Of a stretch of DNA of 6,175 nucleotides, positions 1 through 6,175 are shown one piece after another. The translations under genes and the position numbers were made by a program. How positions within the stretch are numbered: the stretch's first letter is position 1; each line of letters begins with the position of its first letter. The notes beneath the pieces are model-generated. The model searched no databases. It was not told the origin of the DNA and worked only from the letters and a program-made list of their open reading frames with translations. Source of the DNA: a virus; IMG/VR virus record IMGVR_UViG_3300014540_000001, positions 1 to 6,175 of that record. The stretch is one strand, 5' to 3'.

Positions 1-78
1 CCCGAAGAGTTGGCCGTAACTTAGCGTTGCTCCGTTTTCCTGGATTTCAGCTATTTCTCTTTTTATGTCATTCAGCCA
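1..78. repeat. Terminal redundancy, copy 1. Bases 1-78 are identical to 6098-6175, so this is the overlap of a circular 6,097-nt genome.
   Basis: Base-by-base comparison of both ends: cccgaagagttggccgtaacttagcgttgc...tatgtcattcagcca occurs at 1-78 and at 6098-6175 with no mismatch. A minus-strand reading frame runs through the junction in phase. Confidence 0.95.
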
Positions 79-783
79 GTTCTGGAACTCTATTGTTTTC
101 TTTTCTTCCCTTATTTTCCCGATGTTCTCGTTGATTTCTTCGTTGGTACTCTTCAGATTTTGTAATTCCTGTTCTGCCTTGCTTGTATTTACTTCACTTC
201 CTTTGTTTGCCAGCATTTTCCCTACCAGGTCGAGTCCTGCACTTGCCATGTCTGCGGTAACTTTCTTCATCGTGTCTGCTTTGATGGAGTTGGTTTGTGC
301 CTTGGTCAGTTCTATTTGCGCCTTTTGTGCTTCCGCCTGCAGGGCCACTTGTATTCCCATCGGTTGCATCGCTGTTACTGGTGACATCTGTCCCCCCGAA
401 CTTGTTGCGCTTGTGCTTTGTCCCCCTGCTCCTCCGCCACCGTATAGCAGTGCCGGATTTAGACCCGCTGCTTCGTATCTTGCCTTTTCTGCTGCCGGGT
501 TGTTGTATGCGTTTTGTTTGTCAAACGTATAATCGTACATTTCCCTTGCCAGGTTTTGGTTGTACGCTGCTGTCTGTTTGTTGTAGTCAAACTGTAACCC
601 CATTCGCTGGAGTTCTGCCTGATTCTGCTTTTCCATCATTTCCCGTCCGTATTCAAATGATGCTTCCTGCATTTCTTTCTGCGCCTTGGCATTTATTGCG
701 CCTCCGATCAATCCCATACCACCTCCTAGTACTGATGATATGATACCACCGCCGCCACCCTTTAAAAAATTTAGAAATCCCAT
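1..783 (-). CDS. VP2: Minor capsid / DNA pilot protein VP2 (phiX174 H-like), N-terminal 261 codons. It continues across the circular junction into 6097..5813 for a total of 355 aa.
   Basis: ATG at 783..781 is preceded by an in-frame stop (TAG, 804..802). Plus-strand triplets in phase 1 from 1 to 783 contain no tta, cta or tca, so the minus frame is open to base 1. My translation is MGFLNFLKGGGGGIISSVLGGGMGLIGGAINAKAQKEMQEASFEYGREMMEKQNQAELQRMGLQFDYNKQTAAYNQNLAREMYDYTFDKQNAYNNPAAEKARYEAAGLNPALLYGGGGAGG..., followed by a Q/K/E-rich coiled-coil-like region. A Gly-rich N-terminus plus the YxxAGLNPxL block is typical of microvirus VP2/pilot proteins. The segment is missing from the ORF track because it has no stop codon inside the window edge. 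Confidence 0.8.
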   Translation of the reverse strand, partial: MGFLNFLKGGGGGIISSVLGGGMGLIGGAINAKAQKEMQEASFEYGREMMEKQNQAELQRMGLQFDYNKQTAAYNQNLAREMYDYTFDKQNAYNNPAAEKARYEAAGLNPALLYGGGGAGGQSTSATSSGGQMSPVTAMQPMGIQVALQAEAQKAQIELTKAQTNSIKADTMKKVTADMASAGLDLVGKMLANKGSEVNTSKAEQELQNLKSTNEEINENIGKIREEKKTIEFQNWLNDIKREIAEIQENGATLSYGQLFG

Positions 784-906: not shown

Positions 907-1254
907 TCATGTACTCGGTGCACCTTTTTCATCAGGTGACACCGTAGGCGTCTCCGTTTTCCTGGTTGGTTCCAGTCCTTTTGCTTTCAGAATCTTTTGC
1001 CGGTTGGCCGGTTCCATTTTTTCCTGGACTAAATCCCACTTGTCTGTTCTGATGTTGTATTGAGGCAATACGCCGTCTGCTTTCCTTGTATAAACCAGTG
1101 GTGCTGCATCCTTGATTGGTTCCTTGTTTTCTGTGAGTCTCTTGACCTTGTTTTCAATAATCTCACCTTCGTAGGCATCAATTTTTTTGATACCTTTCAT
1201 TTTTTTAAATACTGGTATTCTTCTCATATTACATAATTGGAATTTGTTTTGCAC
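907..1254 (-). CDS. Small hypothetical protein between VP1 and VP2 (115 aa maximal; more likely 106 aa from the ATG at 1227). It may be a scaffolding-type accessory protein, but its function is not recognisable from sequence.
   Basis: The ORF sits on the gene-sense strand and ends with TGA at 909..907. The ATG at 1227..1225 lies 1 nt after the VP1 stop (TAATATG), which suggests translational coupling. The protein is charged and K/E-rich and contains KADGVLPQYNIRTDKWDLVQEK. The positional analogy to small structural or scaffold genes of microviruses is only an inference. Confidence 0.6.
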   Translation of the reverse strand: MQNKFQLCNMRRIPVFKKMKGIKKIDAYEGEIIENKVKRLTENKEPIKDAAPLVYTRKADGVLPQYNIRTDKWDLVQEKMEPANRQKILKAKGLEPTRKTETPTVSPDEKGAPST

Positions 1255-3142
1255 CCATTACACGTCTTGCTTGTATCCTGAATCCGATTTGTACCCAGAA
1301 ATCCATGTTGTTGAGTTCATTTGTTGCGAAAATCCCGGTAAACTCTTTAGGATTTATATAGGTAGTCGCATTCTCGATTTGACCTTTATTTACTGTATAC
1401 TGTCTGTTCAGGCACATGAATCCCTCGCTTTCTCCTGCGGCGAAATTGCCGTATGTCCTGTTCACGTTTGTCATGTAGTTAATCCATGCGATTGTTTTGC
1501 CTAATGCTGCGTTTTCATCTGCGTCCGCGTGCATCCATTTCTCCATCAGGTCCTGGTACCCGATACCGTCCAGCTGCGGTTTGTGAATGTCATTTAATGT
1601 GTCAAGGTCATTATCCCAGTCATTTCCCTGTGAGTAGTCTATGCGCGGCGTAATGCTTGCTATTCCGATAATATAGGATGGTTCTGATATTTTGATTGTG
1701 ATTGTACCTCCTTTCTTGTTCGAGTTGTATCCTTTGCCTGCCAGTGTTCCTAACGGTTCATTTCCTTGAATTTCTGTTGCTGATGTGCTGACAATTTCTC
1801 CGAATTCAATTTCGCCTGATAATCCGCCTTCATATACCGGTGTTTCAGCCCTGAAGTAATAGTCTGTAGTATATACTGTTTCAATCCAGTCCTTGTAGCT
1901 TCCTCCGCTTACTGCGATTCTGTTCAGTAAGTTGTAGACCTTCTGGCTTAAGTTGAGTGTGTCGATTGTAAAGCTTCCGCTTGATGTATCGATTGCCGTT
2001 AATGCTGTGATGCCGTTGTCTCCGTCAATCCATTCCTTGTTTACCCAGTTGTTGAATATATCTGAGAAGTGTGTTTTTAGCGGAAGTCCGTACAGTTGTC
2101 CTCCGCTCGCAATATCCGTAACCATTTCGTTTATTGACGCTACTTCGCAGTTTTGTCCGGAATTCCCGATTATGTATTCTGCTCTTCCTTTGCTTAGGAT
2201 GTCCTCCCGAAGGCTGTCCAGGTCTTCCAGTTTGTAGTCTCCCAGCGTGATGTCTGACTTGTACTTGATATGCACGGTTCCGCCGTTGAATGTGATGATT
2301 GCGGTTGGGTCGGCGCTCTCCCCTCTTTGTAATACGAAACCCGCTCCGTAGCCTATTTTTATCGTTAGCGTTTTGTTTTCGTATCCCAGTTCGCAGTCTG
2401 ACAGTTTTACCCTGCCTCTCATGTATTGCGTGATTTCGCTTCCCTCTGTCCAGCTTTTGGGTGATAAATCTATATAGCTGTCTTCTTTGTTGATGTCGTT
2501 GGGTAAAATTCCGGTGATTATTTCTACTATTGCGTTTTTTTCTTCAATGGTTCCGGTGGTGTTTGTTATCATTTCCCCGTTCATGTTTTTCCCGTTGACG
2601 ATTGCCATATCGCTGGTTTTTACAGCGTTTTTAATCATATAGAATGATTCTTCCTGTTTGTTGGCGTAGTAATTTTTGAAGATGTCCCAGACTCCTAGAA
2701 ATGGTACCGCGTTTACTTTCTTTCCGTTCTTGAATTTTTTGATTCCTAGATAGTTGAAGATACTGCTTGATGATGTCTTGACGTCTTGGTTGATACATAG
2801 CTTGGGTAACTTTACCTTGGACATGTCCAGCCCGATATTCAGTGCATTGTTGTGCAGCATTGCGTTGTACAGTCTGATAGGTACTGTAAATACATCCATT
2901 TGAAATTTGAAACTTCCCAGTAATGGCCCTAATGTCGGATGTGTCATTATCTTGTCTTCCGCTTCGATTGCAAATGTATCGCCGGGCATTCCTAGCAGTT
3001 TAAGACATGGAACCAGGGTTCCTACCCCCATGCTGCTTCGCCACGCGTAGGATAAGTCATGTGTACTTCTGTCATATTCCCTTAGGCTTACCGACATTTT
3101 GTTGTTGTCGCCCAGTGTGTTTTTACCGATGTTTACTTTCAT
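1229..3142 (-). CDS. VP1: Major capsid protein VP1 (microvirus F/VP1 jelly-roll capsid), 637 aa.
   Basis: ATG at 3142..3140 and TAA at 1231..1229. The N-terminal signature is RSTHDLSYAWRSSMGVGTLVP...MPGDTF...GPLLGSFKFQMDVFTVPIRLYN. Later blocks, LNLSQKVYNLLNRIAVSGGSYKDWIE and ITPRIDYSQG...LDGIGYQ, are also characteristic of Microviridae major capsid proteins. It is the longest ORF in the genome. Its start overlaps the stop of the upstream ORF (ATGA). Confidence 0.95.
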   Translation of the reverse strand: MKVNIGKNTLGDNNKMSVSLREYDRSTHDLSYAWRSSMGVGTLVPCLKLLGMPGDTFAIEAEDKIMTHPTLGPLLGSFKFQMDVFTVPIRLYNAMLHNNALNIGLDMSKVKLPKLCINQDVKTSSSSIFNYLGIKKFKNGKKVNAVPFLGVWDIFKNYYANKQEESFYMIKNAVKTSDMAIVNGKNMNGEMITNTTGTIEEKNAIVEIITGILPNDINKEDSYIDLSPKSWTEGSEITQYMRGRVKLSDCELGYENKTLTIKIGYGAGFVLQRGESADPTAIITFNGGTVHIKYKSDITLGDYKLEDLDSLREDILSKGRAEYIIGNSGQNCEVASINEMVTDIASGGQLYGLPLKTHFSDIFNNWVNKEWIDGDNGITALTAIDTSSGSFTIDTLNLSQKVYNLLNRIAVSGGSYKDWIETVYTTDYYFRAETPVYEGGLSGEIEFGEIVSTSATEIQGNEPLGTLAGKGYNSNKKGGTITIKISEPSYIIGIASITPRIDYSQGNDWDNDLDTLNDIHKPQLDGIGYQDLMEKWMHADADENAALGKTIAWINYMTNVNRTYGNFAAGESEGFMCLNRQYTVNKGQIENATTYINPKEFTGIFATNELNNMDFWVQIGFRIQARRVMGAKQIPIM

Positions 3143-3447
3143 TTTTTGTTCTCTTTATATGTTATTGCTCTTTCAAATGCTCCTGCTACGATTTTACACA
3201 CTCTTTCAAGTGTGACGTTTTCCAGATTTTCAATGAGGTCTTTTTTTGTGTCGTATGCTCCGTCTGACACCAGCTGGTTCCCCACTGTTCCGAACCATAC
3301 ATCTTTTTCTTCTGATTTTCCTTTTCTTAGTGAAATTATGCCGTGTAGTGCTTCTGTGAAATCTTGTTCTTTCATTTCCGCTCTGTTTTCACACGTTTCC
3401 CCGACTTTTACTGCCATTTTACATGATTCATTTTCACATTTTTCCAT
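3139..3447 (-). CDS. Hypothetical protein, 102 aa, acidic, ORFan.
   Basis: ATG at 3447..3445 lies 1 nt after the stop of the preceding ORF (TAAAATG). Its own TGA overlaps the VP1 ATG (ATGA at 3142..3139). It is on the same strand and packed like the core genes. I recognise no motif in it. Confidence 0.6.
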   Translation of the reverse strand: MEKCENESCKMAVKVGETCENRAEMKEQDFTEALHGIISLRKGKSEEKDVWFGTVGNQLVSDGAYDTKKDLIENLENVTLERVCKIVAGAFERAITYKENKK

Positions 3448-3448
3448 T

Positions 3449-3649
3449 TTATTTCATTTTAAAGTTAAACATTGTACTGTCATTCTCCTGGTCTGCACTT
3501 GCGTTCTGGTCTACCTTCTGATCGCTGTTGCTGTTGTTTTTCTGAATGTTAAGGCTTATCACGCATCCTCCTAGTGTTGCTGCTAATATCCATACAAGCA
3601 CTAGCATCTTCATTAGTTTTCTTTCCTTGTTACTTTTAGCATTTTCCAT
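3449..3649 (-). CDS. Small putative secreted lipoprotein (66 aa; 54 aa if it starts at the ATG at 3613).
   Basis: The translation is MENAKSNKERKLMKMLVLVWILAATLGGCVISLNIQ.... It has a basic n-region, a hydrophobic core and a lipobox-like LGGC, with the Cys codon TGC at 3565..3563. The tail is 38 aa, polar and rich in N/Q/D/S. The internal ATG at 3613..3611 overlaps the upstream stop (TAATG). Confidence 0.6.
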   Translation of the reverse strand: MENAKSNKERKLMKMLVLVWILAATLGGCVISLNIQKNNSNSDQKVDQNASADQENDSTMFNFKMK

Positions 3650-3798
3650 TGTTTTTTTCCCATTTCGGTTAAATACTTTCCTAACTCTCTATAGCTGCCG
3701 ACTGTGGTTGTCAGGCTGACCACTTGCCCGGTACATTCGTTTACGAATTCGATTTCAAAAATAGTAAATAATGTTGTTCCTTTGTTTTGTGTATTCAT
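3613..3798 (-). CDS. Hypothetical protein, 61 aa, ORFan.
   Basis: ATG at 3798..3796 follows an A-rich leader. TAA at 3615..3613 overlaps the next ATG. It is on the gene-sense strand inside the tightly packed cassette. I recognise no motif in it. Confidence 0.5.
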   Translation of the reverse strand: MNTQNKGTTLFTIFEIEFVNECTGQVVSLTTTVGSYRELGKYLTEMGKKQWKMLKVTRKEN

Positions 3799-3814
3799 TT
3801 TTTTTTATTTTTAG

Positions 3815-4084
3815 CTATCTTTTTCCTTGACACAGTGCGAATACTGTCCTTAGTAATTCTGTCACCGCTTCAAGGCATTCTTTTTTTGTCCCTTGTATCA
3901 TCTTGTCCAGTCTGTCCCCTCTTCTTGCTATGTAATAGTCGTGTACGCTTTCCATAACTGTATAGTTTGAGTATTTCCAGTCTTCCGTACCTGCTATCCT
4001 GTAGTTTATATTTCCGTTTTTTTCTAGTTTTATTTCTAAACTTAAACTGTCGTTGACTGCTGTCAATTTTATCATTTCTCTCAT
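3815..4084 (-). CDS. Hypothetical protein, 89 aa, the first gene after the promoter. The 107-aa form in the ORF track starts at a TTG inside the promoter.
   Basis: The first ATG of the frame is at 4084..4082 (MREMIKLTAVND...). The track start at 4138 is TTG and coincides with the -33 TTTG element, and the -7 box lies within the supposed extra 18 codons. I recognise no motif in it. Confidence 0.55.
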   Translation of the reverse strand: MREMIKLTAVNDSLSLEIKLEKNGNINYRIAGTEDWKYSNYTVMESVHDYYIARRGDRLDKMIQGTKKECLEAVTELLRTVFALCQGKR

Positions 4085-4108
4085 AATTCTTTGTTTTTGA
4101 TTACATTG

Positions 4109-4139
4109 CAAATATACGATTTTTTTTTGAAACTTCAAA
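4109..4139 (-). promoter_or_regulatory. Bacteroides-type sigma-AB promoter: -33 TTTG, 19-nt spacer, -7 TATATTTG (TAnnTTTG).
   Basis: The minus strand from 4139 to 4109 reads TTTG AAGTTTCAAAAAAAAATCG TATATTTG. It is followed by a 24-nt A-rich leader and the ATG at 4084. This is the only place in the window where I found both consensus elements at the correct spacing. Confidence 0.6.
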
Positions 4140-4220
4140 TTTTCATCGTTTTTTTATTATTATTATTTCATTTATTTCTATAGATAAAAACTTATTATAA
4201 TGATGATAGCCTGTTGAAAC

Positions 4221-4317
4221 TGTTTATAACTATGTTAATTCATTCATTTTTAGATATTTATCCTGTTCATAACTTTGTTCATAACTTTTCATTTATTTAT
4301 TTGCATTGTTCATAACT
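4221..4317. repeat. Four direct copies of TGTTYATAACT in the AT-rich intergenic block.
   Basis: tgtttataact is at 4221-4231. tgttcataact is at 4264-4274, 4276-4286 and 4307-4317. Start-to-start spacings are 43, 12 and 31 bp. Confidence 0.85.
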
Positions 4318-4365
4318 ATTTTCTGTAGCAAAACATTTCAATATTCCAAATTTTAAGGCATTTTT

Positions 4366-4429
4366 TTATTAACAACTTATCAACATGTTTATTAACCGAT
4401 TTTGGCAGGTTATCAACAGGTTATTAACA
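4366..4429. repeat. Five phased iteron-like direct repeats, TTATYAAC(A/C).
   Basis: The copies are ttattaaca 4366-4374, ttatcaaca 4377-4385, ttattaacc 4389-4397, ttatcaaca 4410-4418 and ttattaaca 4421-4429. Spacings are 11, 12, 21 and 11 bp. The last two are embedded in an 11-bp tandem (caggttatcaa / caggttattaa). Confidence 0.85.
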
Positions 4430-4433
4430 TCCA

Positions 4434-4548
4434 CAAGCCGAATACCTGGAGGCTTGCACATAGTTGGCAGCATGACCACCCGGGAGTGCTGTCCCGGGTA
4501 GCGAGCTAGCCTCGCGTAGTCATGTTGATAAGCGCGGCCTGTGGCCGC
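4434..4548. other. GC-rich hairpin cluster (island A) downstream of VP4, including a three-way-junction fold.
   Basis: A hairpin pairs 4434-4439 with 4451-4456 (6 bp). An outer stem pairs 4468-4476 with 4519-4527 (9 bp, including one G-T). That outer stem encloses two hairpins: 4478-4485 with 4492-4499 (8 bp, acccggga/tcccgggt) and 4501-4505 with 4511-4515 (5 bp). A further hairpin pairs 4534-4539 with 4543-4548 (6 bp, gcggcc/ggccgc). Hand count gives 73 G+C in 4441-4560 (61%). Confidence 0.7.
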
Positions 4549-4573
4549 CTACCTTCTGGCCAACCAGGGATTA

Positions 4574-4618
4574 GCGAAGCTGGCGAAGCTGGCGAAGCTG
4601 GCGAAGTTAGCGAAGCTT
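4574..4618. repeat. 9-bp tandem repeat GCGAAGYTN x5, overlapping the last codons and the stop of VP4.
   Basis: The units are gcgaagctg at 4574-4582, 4583-4591 and 4592-4600, gcgaagtta at 4601-4609, and gcgaagctt at 4610-4618. The VP4 stop TAA is 4609..4607. Confidence 0.9.
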
Positions 4619-5557
4619 TCTGGACTTTAGCCTTGCCTTGCGCATTTTGGCCAGTCTCTTCTTCTGTTTTTCCATTTCCCACTTTACAGGGTCTATTTTC
4701 CATACATTCTCGCTTATTCCTTGGTAATATTTTGTCAGATTTGTCCATTCTTCCTCGTTGTCCATGTTTACTCGCTCTCCGCCTATATATCTGTAACCTC
4801 TTTCCTGTTTTTCAATCCATAGTTTTTCCTTCTCTTCATCCGTATAGATATGGTTTCTGTAATATTGTGGCAGTGGTATTTCTGCCCCGCTTGGCAGTTT
4901 GTAATTTTCATTTGTTCCACGTGGAACATATTTGTTTCGTTTTGCATTGTAGCTTTTCCAGTATCCTCTGCCTATACCTTTGGAAGTTATTATTTTCCCT
5001 ATGAATTCAGGATTTTTTTCAGGTATTTTTAGCATGTATTTTGTGATGTAGTTGATGGTTTTTTCATTTACGTAATCACCCTTGTACCAGTACCCGTATT
5101 TCCAGTGCTTTAGCAGTGCAGGATTTCCCCATAGTATCCCGTGCATGTGTATTCTTTCGAAATCTTCTCCCAGTTCCGTTATGAACCAGTATTTGGGGTA
5201 TTTCCCTTCATTGTATTTTCTGTACAGTTCCATGTAATGTCTTAGTGCGTAGTAGCATATCATATTCAGTTCTTCGTAGCTTGGATTTTCCTTTATCGCT
5301 AGTTTGTTACTTATTTCTTTCAGCCGATAGTCTGAAAATGTGAAAGTTACGAAAGTCGCTGGAACTGTTGCATTTTTCATTTCTTCGTTCAGTCTGATAC
5401 ACCAGTTTCTTTTTTTTTCTTTACGGCATTCTATACAGACACCGCATGATGCTGGTACGTATCTCAGTCTTTCATCCTCGCATTTTGGTGGATTGTAACC
5501 GTTGTTCTTGTTTGGCAGATACTTTGGATTCAGTATATATTTTGTATATAGACACAT
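4607..5557 (-). CDS. VP4: Rolling-circle replication initiation protein VP4 (HUH endonuclease, phiX174 gpA-like), 316 aa.
   Basis: RCR motif 1 is FVTFTF (aa 69-74). The HUH motif is HMH (aa 137-139, nt 5149..5141, verified as CACATGCAC). The double-tyrosine motif is YITKY (aa 170-174, nt 5050..5036, verified). An N-terminal Cys cluster CGVCIEC is typical of microvirus VP4. ATG at 5557..5555 and TAA at 4609..4607. Confidence 0.93.
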   Translation of the reverse strand: MCLYTKYILNPKYLPNKNNGYNPPKCEDERLRYVPASCGVCIECRKEKKRNWCIRLNEEMKNATVPATFVTFTFSDYRLKEISNKLAIKENPSYEELNMICYYALRHYMELYRKYNEGKYPKYWFITELGEDFERIHMHGILWGNPALLKHWKYGYWYKGDYVNEKTINYITKYMLKIPEKNPEFIGKIITSKGIGRGYWKSYNAKRNKYVPRGTNENYKLPSGAEIPLPQYYRNHIYTDEEKEKLWIEKQERGYRYIGGERVNMDNEEEWTNLTKYYQGISENVWKIDPVKWEMEKQKKRLAKMRKARLKSRKLR

Positions 5558-5583: not shown

Positions 5584-5644
5584 GAGAGGTCGCAAACCGC
5601 CTGCCTGGATGTTACTCCTCAGGAGGTCCGACCTCTCTTTTTTT
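5584..5644. terminator. Long-loop GC-rich hairpin flanked by an A-rich stretch and a T7 run. It looks like a terminator on the plus (antisense) strand and could act as a weaker attenuator on the gene-sense strand just upstream of VP4.
   Basis: gagaggtcg (5584-5592) pairs with cgacctctc (5629-5637): 9 bp with a 36-nt loop. T7 follows at 5638-5644. On the minus strand the stem is followed by ATTCTTTAT. An internal competing copy, gaggtccg, lies at 5623-5630. Confidence 0.35.
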
Positions 5645-5648
5645 ATAA

Positions 5649-5810
5649 CCCTAGCCGCGCGGCGATTGAGCGCCACATAGTAGCGAATTCTGCATAGCGC
5701 GTTAGGGATTGCAGGCGAGTATGCCCGCAGGGCATTTGTTTGAGCCGGAAAGCCCGACCCTTCAGGGTAACGCCCAAAATAAAAACATCGTGCGTGCGAT
5801 TACGCGTGCG
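5649..5810. other. GC-rich structured intergenic island B between the VP2 stop and the VP4 start.
   Basis: A composite stem pairs 5649-5653 plus 5656-5660 with 5697-5701 plus 5703-5707 (cccta..cgcgc / gcgcg..taggg). It encloses a hairpin pairing 5661-5664 with 5671-5674. There is a 10-nt palindrome gccgcgcggc at 5654-5663. A further hairpin pairs 5721-5726 with 5730-5735 (atgccc/gggcat). An imperfect hairpin at 5791-5810 carries the direct repeat gcgtgcg at 5792-5798 and 5804-5810. Hand count gives 68 G+C in 5641-5760 (57%). Confidence 0.6.
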
Positions 5811-5812
5811 CG

Positions 5813-6097
5813 TCATTTTTTATTGGCGAAGTACCTGATGATTGCCAATAGTAGCTTGCTGTATTTGCTGTCTGTTCCTAATTCATTTAGCAGGTCTCCG
5901 AATGCCTTGTCGTTCTTCAGATTCCAGTCCATTTCTTCGTATTTCTTGCTGCTGATTCTGTAGCCGTCTGTTTCTCCCTTGACTATTGCTTCAAGGTTGT
6001 TGAACAATGCTGTTATTTTATTCTGGTTGAAGTCCGCTTCGTCGAATTTCAGTCCCAGTTCTTTAAGTTCGGTTTTCAGGCCTTGCAGTTCTTTCAT
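5813..6097 (-). CDS. VP2: VP2, C-terminal 94 codons plus stop. In the linear window the same frame stays open up to 6175, which duplicates 1-78.
   Basis: Position 1 equals 6098, and 783-1+1 = 783 nt = 261 full codons. The next codon is therefore 6097..6095, the ATG that the ORF track used as the start of its 94-aa ORF. The two pieces are in the same frame. The stop is TGA at 5815..5813. Confidence 0.75.
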   Translation of the reverse strand: MKELQGLKTELKELGLKFDEADFNQNKITALFNNLEAIVKGETDGYRISSKKYEEMDWNLKNDKAFGDLLNELGTDSKYSKLLLAIIRYFANKK

Positions 6098-6175
6098 CCC
6101 GAAGAGTTGGCCGTAACTTAGCGTTGCTCCGTTTTCCTGGATTTCAGCTATTTCTCTTTTTATGTCATTCAGCCA
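6098..6175. repeat. Terminal redundancy, copy 2 (identical to 1-78).
   Basis: Same comparison as copy 1. The repeat begins immediately after ctttcat at 6091-6097. Confidence 0.95.

What the first reader, a model, noticed from the sequence alone, without database searches (positions are those of the whole stretch)
3449..3649. A small lipoprotein-type ORF in a 6-kb microvirus: candidate lysis or superinfection-exclusion effector
The ORF reads MENAKSNKERKL-MKMLVLVWILAATLGG|CVISLNIQKNNSNSDQKVDQNASADQENDSTMFNFKMK. It has a basic n-region, an unbroken hydrophobic core and a lipobox-like L-G-G-C (Cys codon at 3565..3563). That is the layout of a signal-peptidase-II substrate. The predicted mature part is only 38 aa, polar, with no second hydrophobic segment. 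The internal ATG at 3613 overlaps the upstream stop (TAATG), so a 54-aa form is equally plausible.

To my knowledge no lysis gene has been defined for microviruses outside the phiX174 group. phiX174 E is an MraY inhibitor, and I see no counterpart here. In other phage families, small lipoproteins act as outer-membrane spanins (Rz1) or as receptor-masking exclusion factors (T5 Llp). A genome this small rarely carries dispensable genes, so this ORF deserves a functional test.
Basis: partly seen in the sequence, partly recalled or inferred. Interest (0 to 1): 0.7.

Follow-up and report, generated by a model that had tools for sequence, protein, structure and literature searches.

The report
Conserved small lipoprotein of gut microviruses
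A 66-codon gene in this 6.1-kb single-stranded-DNA phage encodes a small lipid-anchored peptide that is conserved in thousands of related gut phages, belongs to no described family, and is the best candidate for the phage's unknown cell-bursting (or host-surface-blocking) factor.

Summary
The ORF is exactly as described: 3449..3649 on the minus strand, 66 aa, Cys29 codon at 3565..3563, TAATG overlap at 3613.

A lipobox ORF of this kind turns up in 21% of shuffled genomes, so the motif alone proves little. Comparison makes it a real gene:
- 3743 protein clusters match the family profile, almost all on ~6-kb microvirus contigs.
- 220 of 222 retrieved homologues keep the lipobox Cys.
- The first mature segment has pN 0.08 against saturated pS 0.77-0.90.
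- Synteny is fixed: o61, lipoprotein, o102, VP1.

The family has no Pfam, PHROG, NCBIfam or PADLOC match, and I found no paper describing it.

The 66-aa start is the conserved one; the internal ATG is absent in about 30% of homologues. A conserved Bacteroides-type promoter and leaders without a Shine-Dalgarno motif point to a Bacteroidota host. No surface-export signal is present.

Function is unproven. This is the only hydrophobic ORF on the gene strand. Among 153 related genomes, 54 carry a small lipobox ORF, 10 carry a peptidoglycan enzyme, and none carries both. I favour a lysis effector (about 0.4) over Llp/Cor-type exclusion (about 0.25). A spanin role is unlikely.

The parts
3449..3649 (-). 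Lpp66: 66-aa prolipoprotein gene (stop codon included)
   Evidence: ORF found. Homologues. Purifying selection. Gene callers in at least 7 independent assemblies call the 66-aa form.
3566..3649 (-). Signal peptide, residues 1-28. A basic n-region (MENAKSNKERKLMK), an h-region (MLVLVWILAAT) and lipobox residues L-G-G.
   Evidence: Fits the PROSITE-type rule. The h-region varies but stays hydrophobic. AlphaFold2 gives a confident helix, pLDDT 74-91.
3563..3565 (-). Cys29 codon, the predicted lipidation site and first residue of the mature peptide
   Evidence: Cys is invariant in 119 of 119 homologues and present in 220 of 222. pN is about 0 across the lipobox while pS is 0.29-0.37.
3452..3562 (-). 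The 37 residues after Cys29. They hold two conserved motifs with alternating hydrophobic residues, V-I-S-L-N-I-Q-K-N-N and D-S-T-x-F-N-F-K, joined by an Asn/Gln/Asp-rich linker.
   Evidence: Column conservation. Residues 30-42 have pN 0.08 against pS 0.77-0.90. The motifs recur in distant subfamilies. AlphaFold2 finds no confident independent fold, pLDDT 45-59. No Asp or Glu at +2..+6 in 219 homologues.
3613..3798 (-). o61: conserved 61-aa ORF of unknown function. Its last 12 codons overlap the first 12 codons of Lpp66 in another frame.
   Evidence: It is 66-87% identical across the clade and always lies directly 5' of the lipoprotein gene. pS is lowered in the overlap.
3139..3447 (-). o102: conserved ORF between the lipoprotein gene and VP1. 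Its start lies one base after the Lpp66 stop.
   Evidence: Relatives of it precede VP1 throughout the wider lineage.
4109..4139 (-). Bacteroides-type promoter TTTG-N19-TATATTTG, which probably drives o89, o61, Lpp66, o102 and VP1
   Evidence: The same ~30-nt block occurs once per genome in 13 of 17 relatives, always 5' of o61 and the lipoprotein gene. No terminator-like site was found in 3300-4600.
1229..3142 (-). VP1 major capsid protein (context, same transcription direction)
   Evidence: Pfam Phage_F, E = 1.4e-17.

Best explanation
Lpp66 is a real phage gene for a small signal-peptidase-II lipoprotein. I think it most likely serves as the phage's lysis effector.

Proposed course:
1. It is transcribed with the capsid genes from the single conserved Bacteroides-type promoter (the motif is shown; its activity is inferred).
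2. The precursor is exported by Sec, lipid-modified on Cys29 and cut by LspA after Gly28 (inferred from sequence rules and the invariant Cys).
3. It has no Bacteroidota surface-export signal, so the 38-residue mature peptide stays tethered to a periplasm-facing membrane leaflet (inferred).
4. Its two conserved motifs with alternating hydrophobic residues, which do not fold confidently on their own, bind a conserved host envelope component. This disturbs peptidoglycan or outer-membrane integrity until the cell bursts (hypothesis).

The effect could come from blocking a periplasmic step of wall synthesis, as the single-gene-lysis 'protein antibiotics' do. It could also come from activating host lytic enzymes, as colicin-release lipoproteins do with OmpLA. 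The target is unknown.
For: Real, selected gene:
- 1173 candidate homologues; the 120 listed are all 80-100% identical, and 119 of them are 66 aa.
- 3743 clusters match the family profile.
- The lipobox Cys is kept in 220 of 222.
- Residues 30-42 have pN 0.08 against pS 0.77-0.90, so the constraint is on the protein and not on the DNA, and recent transfer does not explain it.
- It is as conserved as the VP1 core. The mature part is 54-95% identical to the window's across relatives whose VP1 variable region is only 10-27% identical (L001, the closest, is 65%).

Envelope-directed:
- It fits the PROSITE lipoprotein rule.
- No acidic surface-export signal.

Pointers to lysis:
- It is the only ORF of at least 20 aa on the gene strand with a hydrophobic segment. 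Pfam and PHROG find no peptidoglycan hydrolase or holin in the genome.
- In relatives, the region between Rep and VP1 where it sits holds other cargo instead. This is a DUF5675/YkuD-like enzyme (L016, L019), an M15-like peptidase with a small TM ORF (L072, L101, L102, L132), or a small TM protein alone (L017, L018, L052, L064).
- Among 153 near-complete genomes, 54 have a small lipobox ORF, 10 have a peptidoglycan enzyme and none has both (hypergeometric P = 0.011, uncorrected for phylogeny).
- Lipobox or signal-anchor mini-ORFs with no demonstrable sequence relationship sit in the same slot: the 56-aa, 49-aa and 'CNVTRT' types. Repeated invention of this kind is typical of lysis genes in very small phages (PMC7693330).
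- It is co-transcribed with the capsid genes.
Against: - No experiment and no homology link it to any known lysis protein.
- The exclusivity with peptidoglycan enzymes rests on a handful of independent evolutionary events. Seventy-one of the 153 genomes have no recognisable envelope-directed gene at all, so absence of an enzyme is common anyway.
- The slot between Rep and VP1 holds all accessory genes, so position alone is weak evidence.
- Single-gene lysis proteins usually evolve fast, and here the mature peptide is unusually conserved.
- To my knowledge no known single-gene lysis protein is a lipoprotein.
- Soluble lysis proteins without a membrane segment exist (Qbeta A2), so another gene could do the job.
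- The known phage lipoproteins with this layout that act without a partner (T5 Llp, Cor) are exclusion factors.
Confidence: 0.4

Rival explanations
1. It is a superinfection-exclusion or receptor-masking lipoprotein of the T5 Llp / phi80-N15 Cor type. The tethered peptide would bind the phage's outer-membrane receptor from the periplasmic side. That would block entry of further phages and stop progeny being lost on cell debris.
For: - It has the same architecture as Llp and Cor: a small SPII lipoprotein with no partner gene.
- The predicted periplasm-facing location is compatible with this role.
- Strong conservation of the mature peptide suits a specific protein-protein contact.
- An integrated prophage of the wider lineage (L075, in a Paludibacteraceae genome) also carries a small lipoprotein gene next to VP1.
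Against: - No sequence relationship to any exclusion family in Pfam, PHROG or PADLOC.
- The peptide does not track the capsid surface. Its mature part is 54-95% identical to the window's across relatives whose VP1 variable region is only 10-27% identical (L001, the closest, is 65%).
- No Lpp66-type gene was found in 185,579 species-representative genomes, so this clade shows no sign of lysogeny.
- Exclusion does not explain why genomes with a peptidoglycan enzyme lack such a lipoprotein.
- It leaves the phage with no lysis candidate.
Confidence: 0.25
2. It has some other periplasmic or envelope role that is neither lysis nor exclusion. Examples are damping an envelope-stress or defence response, altering capsule or outer-membrane vesicle output, or helping release without killing (a carrier state).
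For: - The exported, tethered and conserved peptide has no fold of its own, which fits many binding roles.
- 71 of 153 related genomes manage without any recognisable envelope gene.
- Carrier-state microviruses are documented (PMC9753089).
Against: - Nothing specific supports any one of these roles.
- A 6.1-kb genome under tight size limits keeps this gene in every complete close relative examined, which argues for a core step of the cycle.
Confidence: 0.17
3. It is an outer-membrane spanin-like disruptor (Rz1 or u-spanin type) that acts after the wall has been degraded by something else.
For: It is a small phage lipoprotein whose gene overlaps the upstream gene, an arrangement reminiscent of overlapped spanin pairs.
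Against: - No partner with an N-terminal membrane segment exists. o61 has no hydrophobic stretch, and no other gene-strand ORF of at least 20 aa has one.
- There is no C-terminal membrane segment, which rules out the u-spanin type.
- There is no periplasmic Cys, whereas cysteines are reported as ubiquitous in two-component spanin systems (PMC6139136).
- The genome has no endolysin or holin.
- In relatives that do have an endolysin, the lipoprotein is absent.
Confidence: 0.05
4. It is exported but is not a lipoprotein. The N-terminus would be an uncleaved signal anchor or a signal-peptidase-I substrate, and the conserved Cys would serve another purpose.
For: - No SignalP or LipoP run and no experiment.
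- The positional analogue in the 5.6-kb clade has an atypical E-Q-G-C box after a 17-residue hydrophobic stretch, which looks more like an anchor.
- Gly at position -2 lies outside the narrow [LVI][ASTVI][GAS]C consensus quoted in PMC6139136.
Against: - Leu at -3 and Gly at -1 with an invariant Cys at +1 is the hallmark of signal peptidase II and a poor signal-peptidase-I site.
- In 211 of 219 homologues that keep the lipobox, the lipobox Cys is the only Cys in the protein.
- The lipobox variants seen (LGG, MGG, AGG, AGS, FGG; also VQS, GVS and LTS in the other types) all keep a small residue at -1.
Confidence: 0.1
5. It is a chance ORF with no product.
For: A lipobox-type ORF arises in 21% of shuffled genomes.
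Against: Thousands of homologues, fixed synteny, an invariant Cys, and pN well below pS with saturated synonymous sites.
Confidence: 0.01

Closest known systems
Colicin lysis proteins / bacteriocin release proteins (Pfam PF02402 Lysis_col)
   Same: Very small SPII lipoproteins with a polar mature part of about 28-38 residues. They have no partner gene and no enzyme domain. They cause lysis or leakage of the producing cell (the BRP facts are from my own knowledge).
   Different: No sequence similarity: no Pfam hit at E <= 0.1. They are plasmid-borne, not phage-borne. They act in Enterobacteria through OmpLA, and whether Bacteroidota offer an equivalent route is unknown. The function of Lpp66 is untested.
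Phage T5 Llp and phi80/N15 Cor exclusion lipoproteins
   Same: Phage-encoded small SPII lipoproteins that act alone on the host envelope from the periplasmic side.
   Different: No sequence similarity. The Lpp66 mature part (38 aa) is shorter than Llp's, which I recall as about 60 aa, and has no confident predicted fold. It shows no covariation with the capsid surface. This phage has no other lysis candidate.
Lambda Rz1 and other o-spanins; T1 gp11 u-spanin
   Same: A lipobox, small size, and a gene overlapping its upstream neighbour.
   Different: No i-spanin partner, no C-terminal membrane segment, no periplasmic Cys, and no endolysin or holin in the genome.
phiX174 E and the ssRNA-phage single-gene lysis proteins (Sgl; targets MraY, MurA, MurJ)
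   Same: A single small, membrane-targeted product in a minimal phage genome that has no muralytic enzyme. Non-homologous versions arise repeatedly in related phages.
   Different: E and most Sgls are membrane-spanning or soluble proteins, not lipoproteins. E is embedded inside another gene, whereas Lpp66 has its own slot. Lpp66 would act from the periplasmic side. Its mature peptide is much more conserved than is typical for Sgls.
Predicted M15 peptidase endolysins of microviruses (Roux 2012; Kirchberger 2022; Bacteroides phage phiHBP1)
   Same: Accessory genes of gut microviruses presumed to serve lysis. In relatives of this phage they sit in the same Rep-to-VP1 region.
   Different: They are enzymes of 110-135 aa, often followed by a small TM ORF. 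They never co-occur with the lipoprotein in the 153 genomes examined.
Entericidin B (NCBIfam NF007487)
   Same: A roughly 48-aa bacteriolytic lipoprotein toxin.
   Different: Lpp66 gives no hit. Only the unrelated L075 prophage lipoprotein gives a sub-threshold match (E = 0.015, 15 bits against a cut-off of 94), which covers its signal peptide and the first residues after the Cys.

Membership tests
Bacterial-type SPII lipoprotein precursor (PROSITE PS51257 rule) | Lys or Arg within the first 7 residues | tested here: met
   Lys5.
Bacterial-type SPII lipoprotein precursor (PROSITE PS51257 rule) | An uncharged hydrophobic stretch followed by a lipobox, with the Cys at position 15-35 | tested here: met
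   VWILAA-TL-G-G-C with Cys29. It is the only six-frame match in the window. Gly at -2 lies outside the narrower [LVI][ASTVI][GAS]C consensus.
Bacterial-type SPII lipoprotein precursor (PROSITE PS51257 rule) | The lipobox Cys is conserved in homologues | tested here: met
   119 of 119 and 220 of 222; the two exceptions are N-terminally aberrant fragments or fusions.
Bacterial-type SPII lipoprotein precursor (PROSITE PS51257 rule) | Acylation and globomycin-sensitive cleavage; SignalP or LipoP call | not testable with these tools
   No predictor or experiment was available.
Bacteroidota surface-exposed lipoprotein | Acidic export signal just after the Cys (C-X-K-(D/E)2 or SDDDD) | tested here: not met
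   The sequence after the Cys is V-I-S-L-N. None of 219 homologues has Asp or Glu at +2..+6.
Two-component spanin, o-spanin (Rz1 type) | An adjacent, overlapping or embedding i-spanin gene with an N-terminal membrane segment | tested here: not met
   No other gene-strand ORF of at least 20 aa has a hydrophobic segment.
Two-component spanin, o-spanin (Rz1 type) | Periplasmic cysteine for disulfide-linked dimers (reported as ubiquitous in two-component spanin systems) | tested here: not met
   The mature part has no Cys apart from the lipidated one. o61, the overlapping neighbour, does contain a Cys, but it has no membrane segment and so is not an i-spanin.
Two-component spanin, o-spanin (Rz1 type) | Works alongside an endolysin and holin | tested here: not met
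   Neither is detected in the genome. The lipoprotein is absent from relatives that have such enzymes.
Unimolecular spanin (T1 gp11 type) | An N-terminal lipobox plus a C-terminal membrane segment | tested here: not met
   The C-terminus is polar...DSTMFNFKMK.
Colicin lysis protein (Pfam PF02402) | Match to the family profile | tested here: not met
   No hit at E <= 0.1.
Colicin lysis protein (Pfam PF02402) | Causes lysis or leakage when expressed | not testable with these tools
   Needs an expression experiment.
T5 Llp / Cor exclusion lipoproteins | Sequence or profile similarity | tested here: not met
   No match in Pfam, PHROG or PADLOC.
T5 Llp / Cor exclusion lipoproteins | Covaries with the phage's receptor-binding surface | tested here: inconclusive
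   The mature peptide is 54-95% identical to the window's where the VP1 variable region is mostly 10-27% identical (65% for L001). The correlation (Spearman 0.47) is what shared ancestry would give. Which part of VP1 binds the receptor is unknown.
phiX174 E-type lysis protein | An N-terminal membrane-spanning helix; gene embedded in a scaffold gene; MraY as target | tested here: not met
   Lpp66 has a lipobox signal rather than a spanning helix followed by a cytoplasmic tail, and it has its own genomic slot. The target is not testable.
Entericidin (NF007487) | Match to the family profile | tested here: not met
   No hit for Lpp66.

The most novel reading that the evidence does not exclude
Lpp66 founds a class of lipoprotein single-gene lysis proteins. 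It would be the long-missing lysis gene of a large group of Bacteroidota-infecting gut microviruses. It would also be the first 'protein antibiotic' that needs signal peptidase II and acts from the periplasmic face on a conserved envelope target of Bacteroidales.
Probability: 0.3. Interest if true: 0.85.

Novelty: new variant of a known kind. Interest (0 to 1): 0.62.

Why it matters
Microviruses are among the most abundant phages of the animal gut. Outside the phiX174 group, how they get out of the cell is known only as a guess, and only for the minority that carry a peptidase.

This work defines an unannotated protein family that is very widespread (3743 clusters at 90% identity) and strongly constrained. 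It is the only envelope-directed product of these genomes, and it occurs as an alternative to peptidoglycan-enzyme cassettes.

- If it is the lysis factor, its 38-residue peptide points to a conserved, druggable weak spot in the Bacteroidales envelope. It would also add a new mechanism to single-gene lysis.
- If it is an exclusion factor, it identifies the receptor pathway of phages that have resisted cultivation.

Either way the question can now be tested directly with one small synthetic gene and a Cys-to-Ala control.

Tried and rejected
- Family libraries. Pfam, PHROG, NCBIfam and PADLOC scans of Lpp66 and four analogues gave nothing above noise.
- Structure. AlphaFold2 on a 20-sequence alignment gave only the signal helix with confidence. 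The mature part had pLDDT 45-59, so no fold search was run because the matches would be meaningless.
- Breadth. phmmer against 1.84 billion cluster representatives found only 12 clusters, so single-sequence search does not reach the distant subfamilies.
- Deep homology. hhalign between the Lpp66/QSC family and the 56-aa family gave 59% probability over the signal region only. Their homology is not shown, and I treat them as positional analogues.
- Host search. Looking for Lpp66 in 185,579 reference genomes found nothing, and the family alignment was too variable to seed that scan. A VP1 profile found one true prophage, L075 in Paludibacteraceae, plus binned ~5.6-kb contigs of doubtful host assignment: Acinetobacter, Christensenellales and Bathyarchaeum labels.
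- More peptidase-bearing microviruses. Using the L072 peptidase or the L019 DUF5675 protein as bait returned only tailed-phage contigs or the same two loci.
- GenBank peptidase microviruses. Hydrophobic-ORF scans of them were swamped by off-frame ORFs from their T-rich coding strands. They were useful only for showing a small TM ORF next to the peptidase and no Lpp-family gene.
- RNA and transcription signals. Rfam gave no hit. The sigma-70 promoter and terminator scan was uninformative. TAnnTTTG alone is at chance frequency; only the full two-box motif together with its conservation carries weight.
- Literature. Searches combining microvirus terms with lipoprotein, lipobox or single-gene lysis found no description of such a protein.
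Full report
**1. The observation**

The window is a circularly permuted microvirus genome. Bases 1-78 repeat at 6098-6175, so the true circle is 6097 nt with 41% G+C. All recognisable genes lie on the minus strand:
- VP2 pilot protein, 783 across the junction to 5813
- Rep, 5557..4607
- o89, 4084..3815
- o61, 3798..3613
- the ORF in question, 3649..3449
- o102, 3447..3139
- VP1, 3142..1229 (Pfam Phage_F, E = 1.4e-17)
- o106, 1227..907

Cys29 is encoded at 3565..3563, and the TAATG overlap with the o61 stop is at 3615..3611. It is the only ORF in six frames that satisfies a PROSITE PS51257-type lipoprotein rule. It is also the only ORF of at least 20 codons on the gene strand with a hydrophobic segment.

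Taken alone this is not significant. The same rule is met by at least one ORF in 21% of 500 dinucleotide-preserving shuffles.

**2. It is a real gene under selection**

A search of 5.8 billion proteins gave 1173 candidates. The best 120 are 80-100% identical, 119 of them are exactly 66 aa, and where the contigs are long they are ~6 kb. A profile of ten diverse members found 3743 clusters at E <= 0.01. The window's own genome has been assembled independently in at least seven samples, and gene callers call the 66-aa form.

The column profile looks like that of an exported protein. The hydrophobic core varies but stays hydrophobic, L-G-G-C is invariant, and the mature part is the most conserved region. 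Across all 222 retrieved proteins, 220 keep the lipobox Cys. In 211 of the 219 that matched the lipobox motif in the scan, it is the only Cys.

In 18 related genomes, Nei-Gojobori counts for residues 30-42 give pN 0.08 against pS 0.77-0.90, which is saturated. For the lipobox, pN is about 0 with pS 0.29-0.37. The constraint is therefore on the protein. It is not on the DNA, and recent transfer does not explain it.

The order o61, lipoprotein, o102, VP1 holds in every complete genome of the clade. The lipoprotein (63-83% identity) and o61 (66-87%) are better conserved than whole VP1 in most relatives (about 50%), and better than VP2 (about 33%) and Rep (about 56%).

**3. Start codon**

Met13 is present in only 138 of 199 close homologues; the rest have Ile, Val or Thr. 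It is absent from most related loci, whereas Met1 and the MENxK...KL n-region are kept. The first 12 codons overlap the end of o61 in another frame, and synonymous change is lower there (pS 0.34), as expected for dual coding. The 66-aa form is therefore the conserved product. In this particular genome the 54-aa form could be made as well.

**4. Family breadth**

Clear relatives carry the motifs C-[VT]-x-S-[LM]-[NST]-[IV]-x-K-N-N ... D-S-T-x-[FI]-N. Examples:
- L014, L046/L049 and L077
- L189 and L191-L195
- GenBank records annotated only as 'hypothetical protein' or not annotated at all: Dulem virus 232, where the gene precedes Rep in a different gene order, and Tortoise microvirus 13

Other clades have different lipobox or signal-anchor mini-ORFs at or near the same position:
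- a 49-aa type in L015 and L023
- a 56-aa type with E-Q-G-C in about 30 genomes of 5.6 kb
- a 'CNVTRT' type in L073 and in the integrated prophage L075

Profile-profile comparison does not demonstrate homology between the 56-aa type and Lpp66; the probability is 59% and covers the signal region only.

No Pfam, PHROG, NCBIfam or PADLOC family matches. No paper that I could find mentions a microvirus lipoprotein. Kirchberger et al. note only that small peptides of about 65 aa with unassigned function link microvirus families.

**5. Host and expression**

A perfect Bacteroides-type promoter, TTTG-N19-TATATTTG, lies at 4139..4109 on the minus strand, 25 nt before the o89 start. The consensus is from my own knowledge of Bacteroides promoters.

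The two-box pattern by itself occurs in 39% of shuffles. However, the same ~30-nt block (TTTGyGTTTTCAAAAAAAATGCSTATATTTG) occurs once per genome, on the gene strand and 5' of o61 and the lipoprotein gene, in 13 of 17 relatives whose proteins are only 50-60% identical.

No gene has a Shine-Dalgarno motif; all have A-rich leaders. No terminator-like site lies between the promoter and VP1. A VP1 profile found one true prophage of the wider lineage. It sits between lon and an aminotransferase gene on a 104-kb Paludibacteraceae contig.

Together these results point to a Bacteroidota host and to co-transcription of the lipoprotein gene with the capsid genes.

The Bacteroidota surface-export signal (C-X-K-(D/E)2 or SDDDD; PMC5080379) is absent. 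The residues after the Cys are V-I-S-L-N, and none of 219 homologues has an acidic residue at +2..+6. The mature peptide is therefore predicted to face the periplasm.

**6. Structure**

AlphaFold2 on a 20-sequence alignment models the signal peptide as a confident helix (pLDDT 74-91). It gives pLDDT 45-59 for the mature part. The peptide probably has no fold of its own.

The conserved residues alternate hydrophobic and polar in two short stretches (V-I-S-L-N-I-Q and F-N-F-K-M). That is the pattern of amphipathic beta-strands that could pair with a partner. This reading is my inference, and it is not what AlphaFold2 modelled: the model runs a low-confidence helix through both stretches.

**7. 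What it does**

Several results bear on function.
- The genome has no peptidoglycan hydrolase, no holin and no other membrane protein.
- In related genomes that lack the lipoprotein, the Rep-to-VP1 region holds one of three things. These are a DUF5675/YkuD-like enzyme (L016, L019; E = 8e-13 and 6e-16), an M15-like peptidase followed by a small TM ORF (L072, L101, L102, L132), or a small TM protein alone (L017, L018, L052, L064).
- Peptidase-bearing microviruses from GenBank, and the cultured Bacteroides fragilis microvirus phiHBP1, likewise have no Lpp-family gene.
- Among 153 near-complete genomes, 54 have a small lipobox ORF, 10 have a peptidoglycan enzyme and none has both. The hypergeometric P is 0.011, but it is not corrected for shared ancestry, and only a handful of independent events are involved.

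I read this as moderate support for the lipoprotein being an alternative solution to the same task as those cassettes, namely host lysis. Repeated appearance of non-homologous mini-lipoproteins in the same slot fits the way lysis genes arise in minimal phages (PMC7693330).

There are also points against this reading.
- 71 of the 153 genomes have no recognisable envelope gene.
- The slot holds all accessory genes.
- The peptide is far more conserved than typical single-gene lysis proteins.
- The known stand-alone phage lipoproteins, Llp and Cor, are exclusion factors.

Exclusion remains a serious rival. It is weakened by the lack of covariation with the VP1 surface, by the absence of any sign of lysogeny for this clade, and by its failure to explain the exclusivity.

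A spanin role fails every defining test: no partner, no C-terminal membrane segment, no periplasmic Cys and no endolysin.

**8. Comparison and novelty**

In layout and possibly in effect, the closest known things are the colicin-release lipoproteins. In origin, the closest are T5 Llp and Cor. It is a member of none of these families. It is a new protein family and a new variant of a known kind, the small phage- or plasmid-encoded lipoprotein that acts on the producer's envelope. If it proves to be the lysis gene, it would be a new mechanistic class of single-gene lysis.

**9. Verdict**

- The gene is real (confidence about 0.99).
- Exported and Cys-dependent, most likely lipidated: about 0.85-0.9.
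- Lysis effector: about 0.4.
- Exclusion: about 0.25.
- Other envelope role: about 0.17.
- Spanin: about 0.05.
- Interest: 0.62.

Noticed in passing
window 1-78 and 6098-6175: There is an exact 78-nt terminal direct repeat, so the window is a circular assembly of a 6097-nt genome. The VP2 pilot gene (355 aa, Gly-rich N-terminus) runs across the junction, 783..1 then 6097..5813 on the minus strand.
   Followed up: yes
window 4109-4139 (-): A canonical Bacteroides-type promoter, TTTG-N19-TATATTTG, lies 25 nt before the o89 start. The ~30-nt block is conserved once per genome in 13 of 17 relatives. This is a useful host indicator for uncultured microviruses.
   Followed up: partly
window 4221-4322 and 4377-4422 (intergenic gap 4139-4505): There are four iteron-like copies of TGTTCATAAC, three of them 43 nt apart. 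There are also two copies of TTATCAACA, with an inverted copy at 4521-4530. On the minus strand, a GC-rich CCCGGG...CCCGGG hairpin lies near 4495-4475. This may be an origin or a Rep-binding region.
   Followed up: no
window 5600-5784 (non-coding, between VP2 and Rep): This stretch is 86.6% identical in DNA to a rat microvirus (ON840019) whose VP1 is only 52% identical in protein. It is a strongly conserved non-coding element of unknown role, and Rfam gives no match.
   Followed up: no
window 3613-3798 (-), o61: This 61-aa protein has no family match and is among the most conserved proteins of the clade (66-87% identity). It always lies directly upstream of the lipoprotein gene and overlaps it. 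It has no signal or membrane segment. It may be functionally coupled to the lipoprotein.
   Followed up: partly
window 3815-4084 (-), o89: The first ORF after the promoter has no homologue in the 71 related viral contigs and only a weak PHROG hit (phrog_4746, E = 9e-4). Relatives carry unrelated ORFs at this position, so this is a variable accessory slot.
   Followed up: no
L016 1748-2131; L019 2388-2765; L124, L133, L156: Some related microviruses encode a DUF5675 protein, which also scores weakly against the Tlde1 and YkuD (L,D-transpeptidase) Pfam models and carries the H.G...S.GC motif. It is a probable cell-wall enzyme, and none of the microvirus papers I read mentions it.
   Followed up: partly
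L072 2759-3243; L087 4553-5021; L088 4525-5053; L101, L102, L132: In microviruses, M15-type peptidase genes are repeatedly followed by a 34-48-aa ORF with one membrane segment. This looks like a minimal endolysin-plus-holin cassette.
   Followed up: partly
L075 about 4600-10400: A microvirus prophage is integrated between lon and an aminotransferase gene on a 104-kb Paludibacteraceae MAG contig. It carries its own 67-aa lipoprotein (LTSC lipobox) directly before VP1. A relative of that lipoprotein sits after VP1 in L073.
   Followed up: partly
window 4506-4748 (-), o80: This 80-aa ORF overlaps the 3' end of Rep in another frame and contains an ASPASPASPAS repeat. Similarity to relatives is weak and patchy (39-54% over 33-58 aa). 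It is probably not a gene.
   Followed up: no
P0016, P0202 (homologues of the ORF): Automatic names in JGI records for this 66-aa protein include 'galactokinase' and 'outer membrane murein-binding lipoprotein Lpp'. Both are unsupported by any similarity found here.
   Followed up: no
L080 (14-kb gut metagenome contig): A complete microvirus gene set, including the lipoprotein gene, is joined to about 7 kb of unrelated small phage-like ORFs. This could be a chimeric assembly or an unusual composite element.
   Followed up: no
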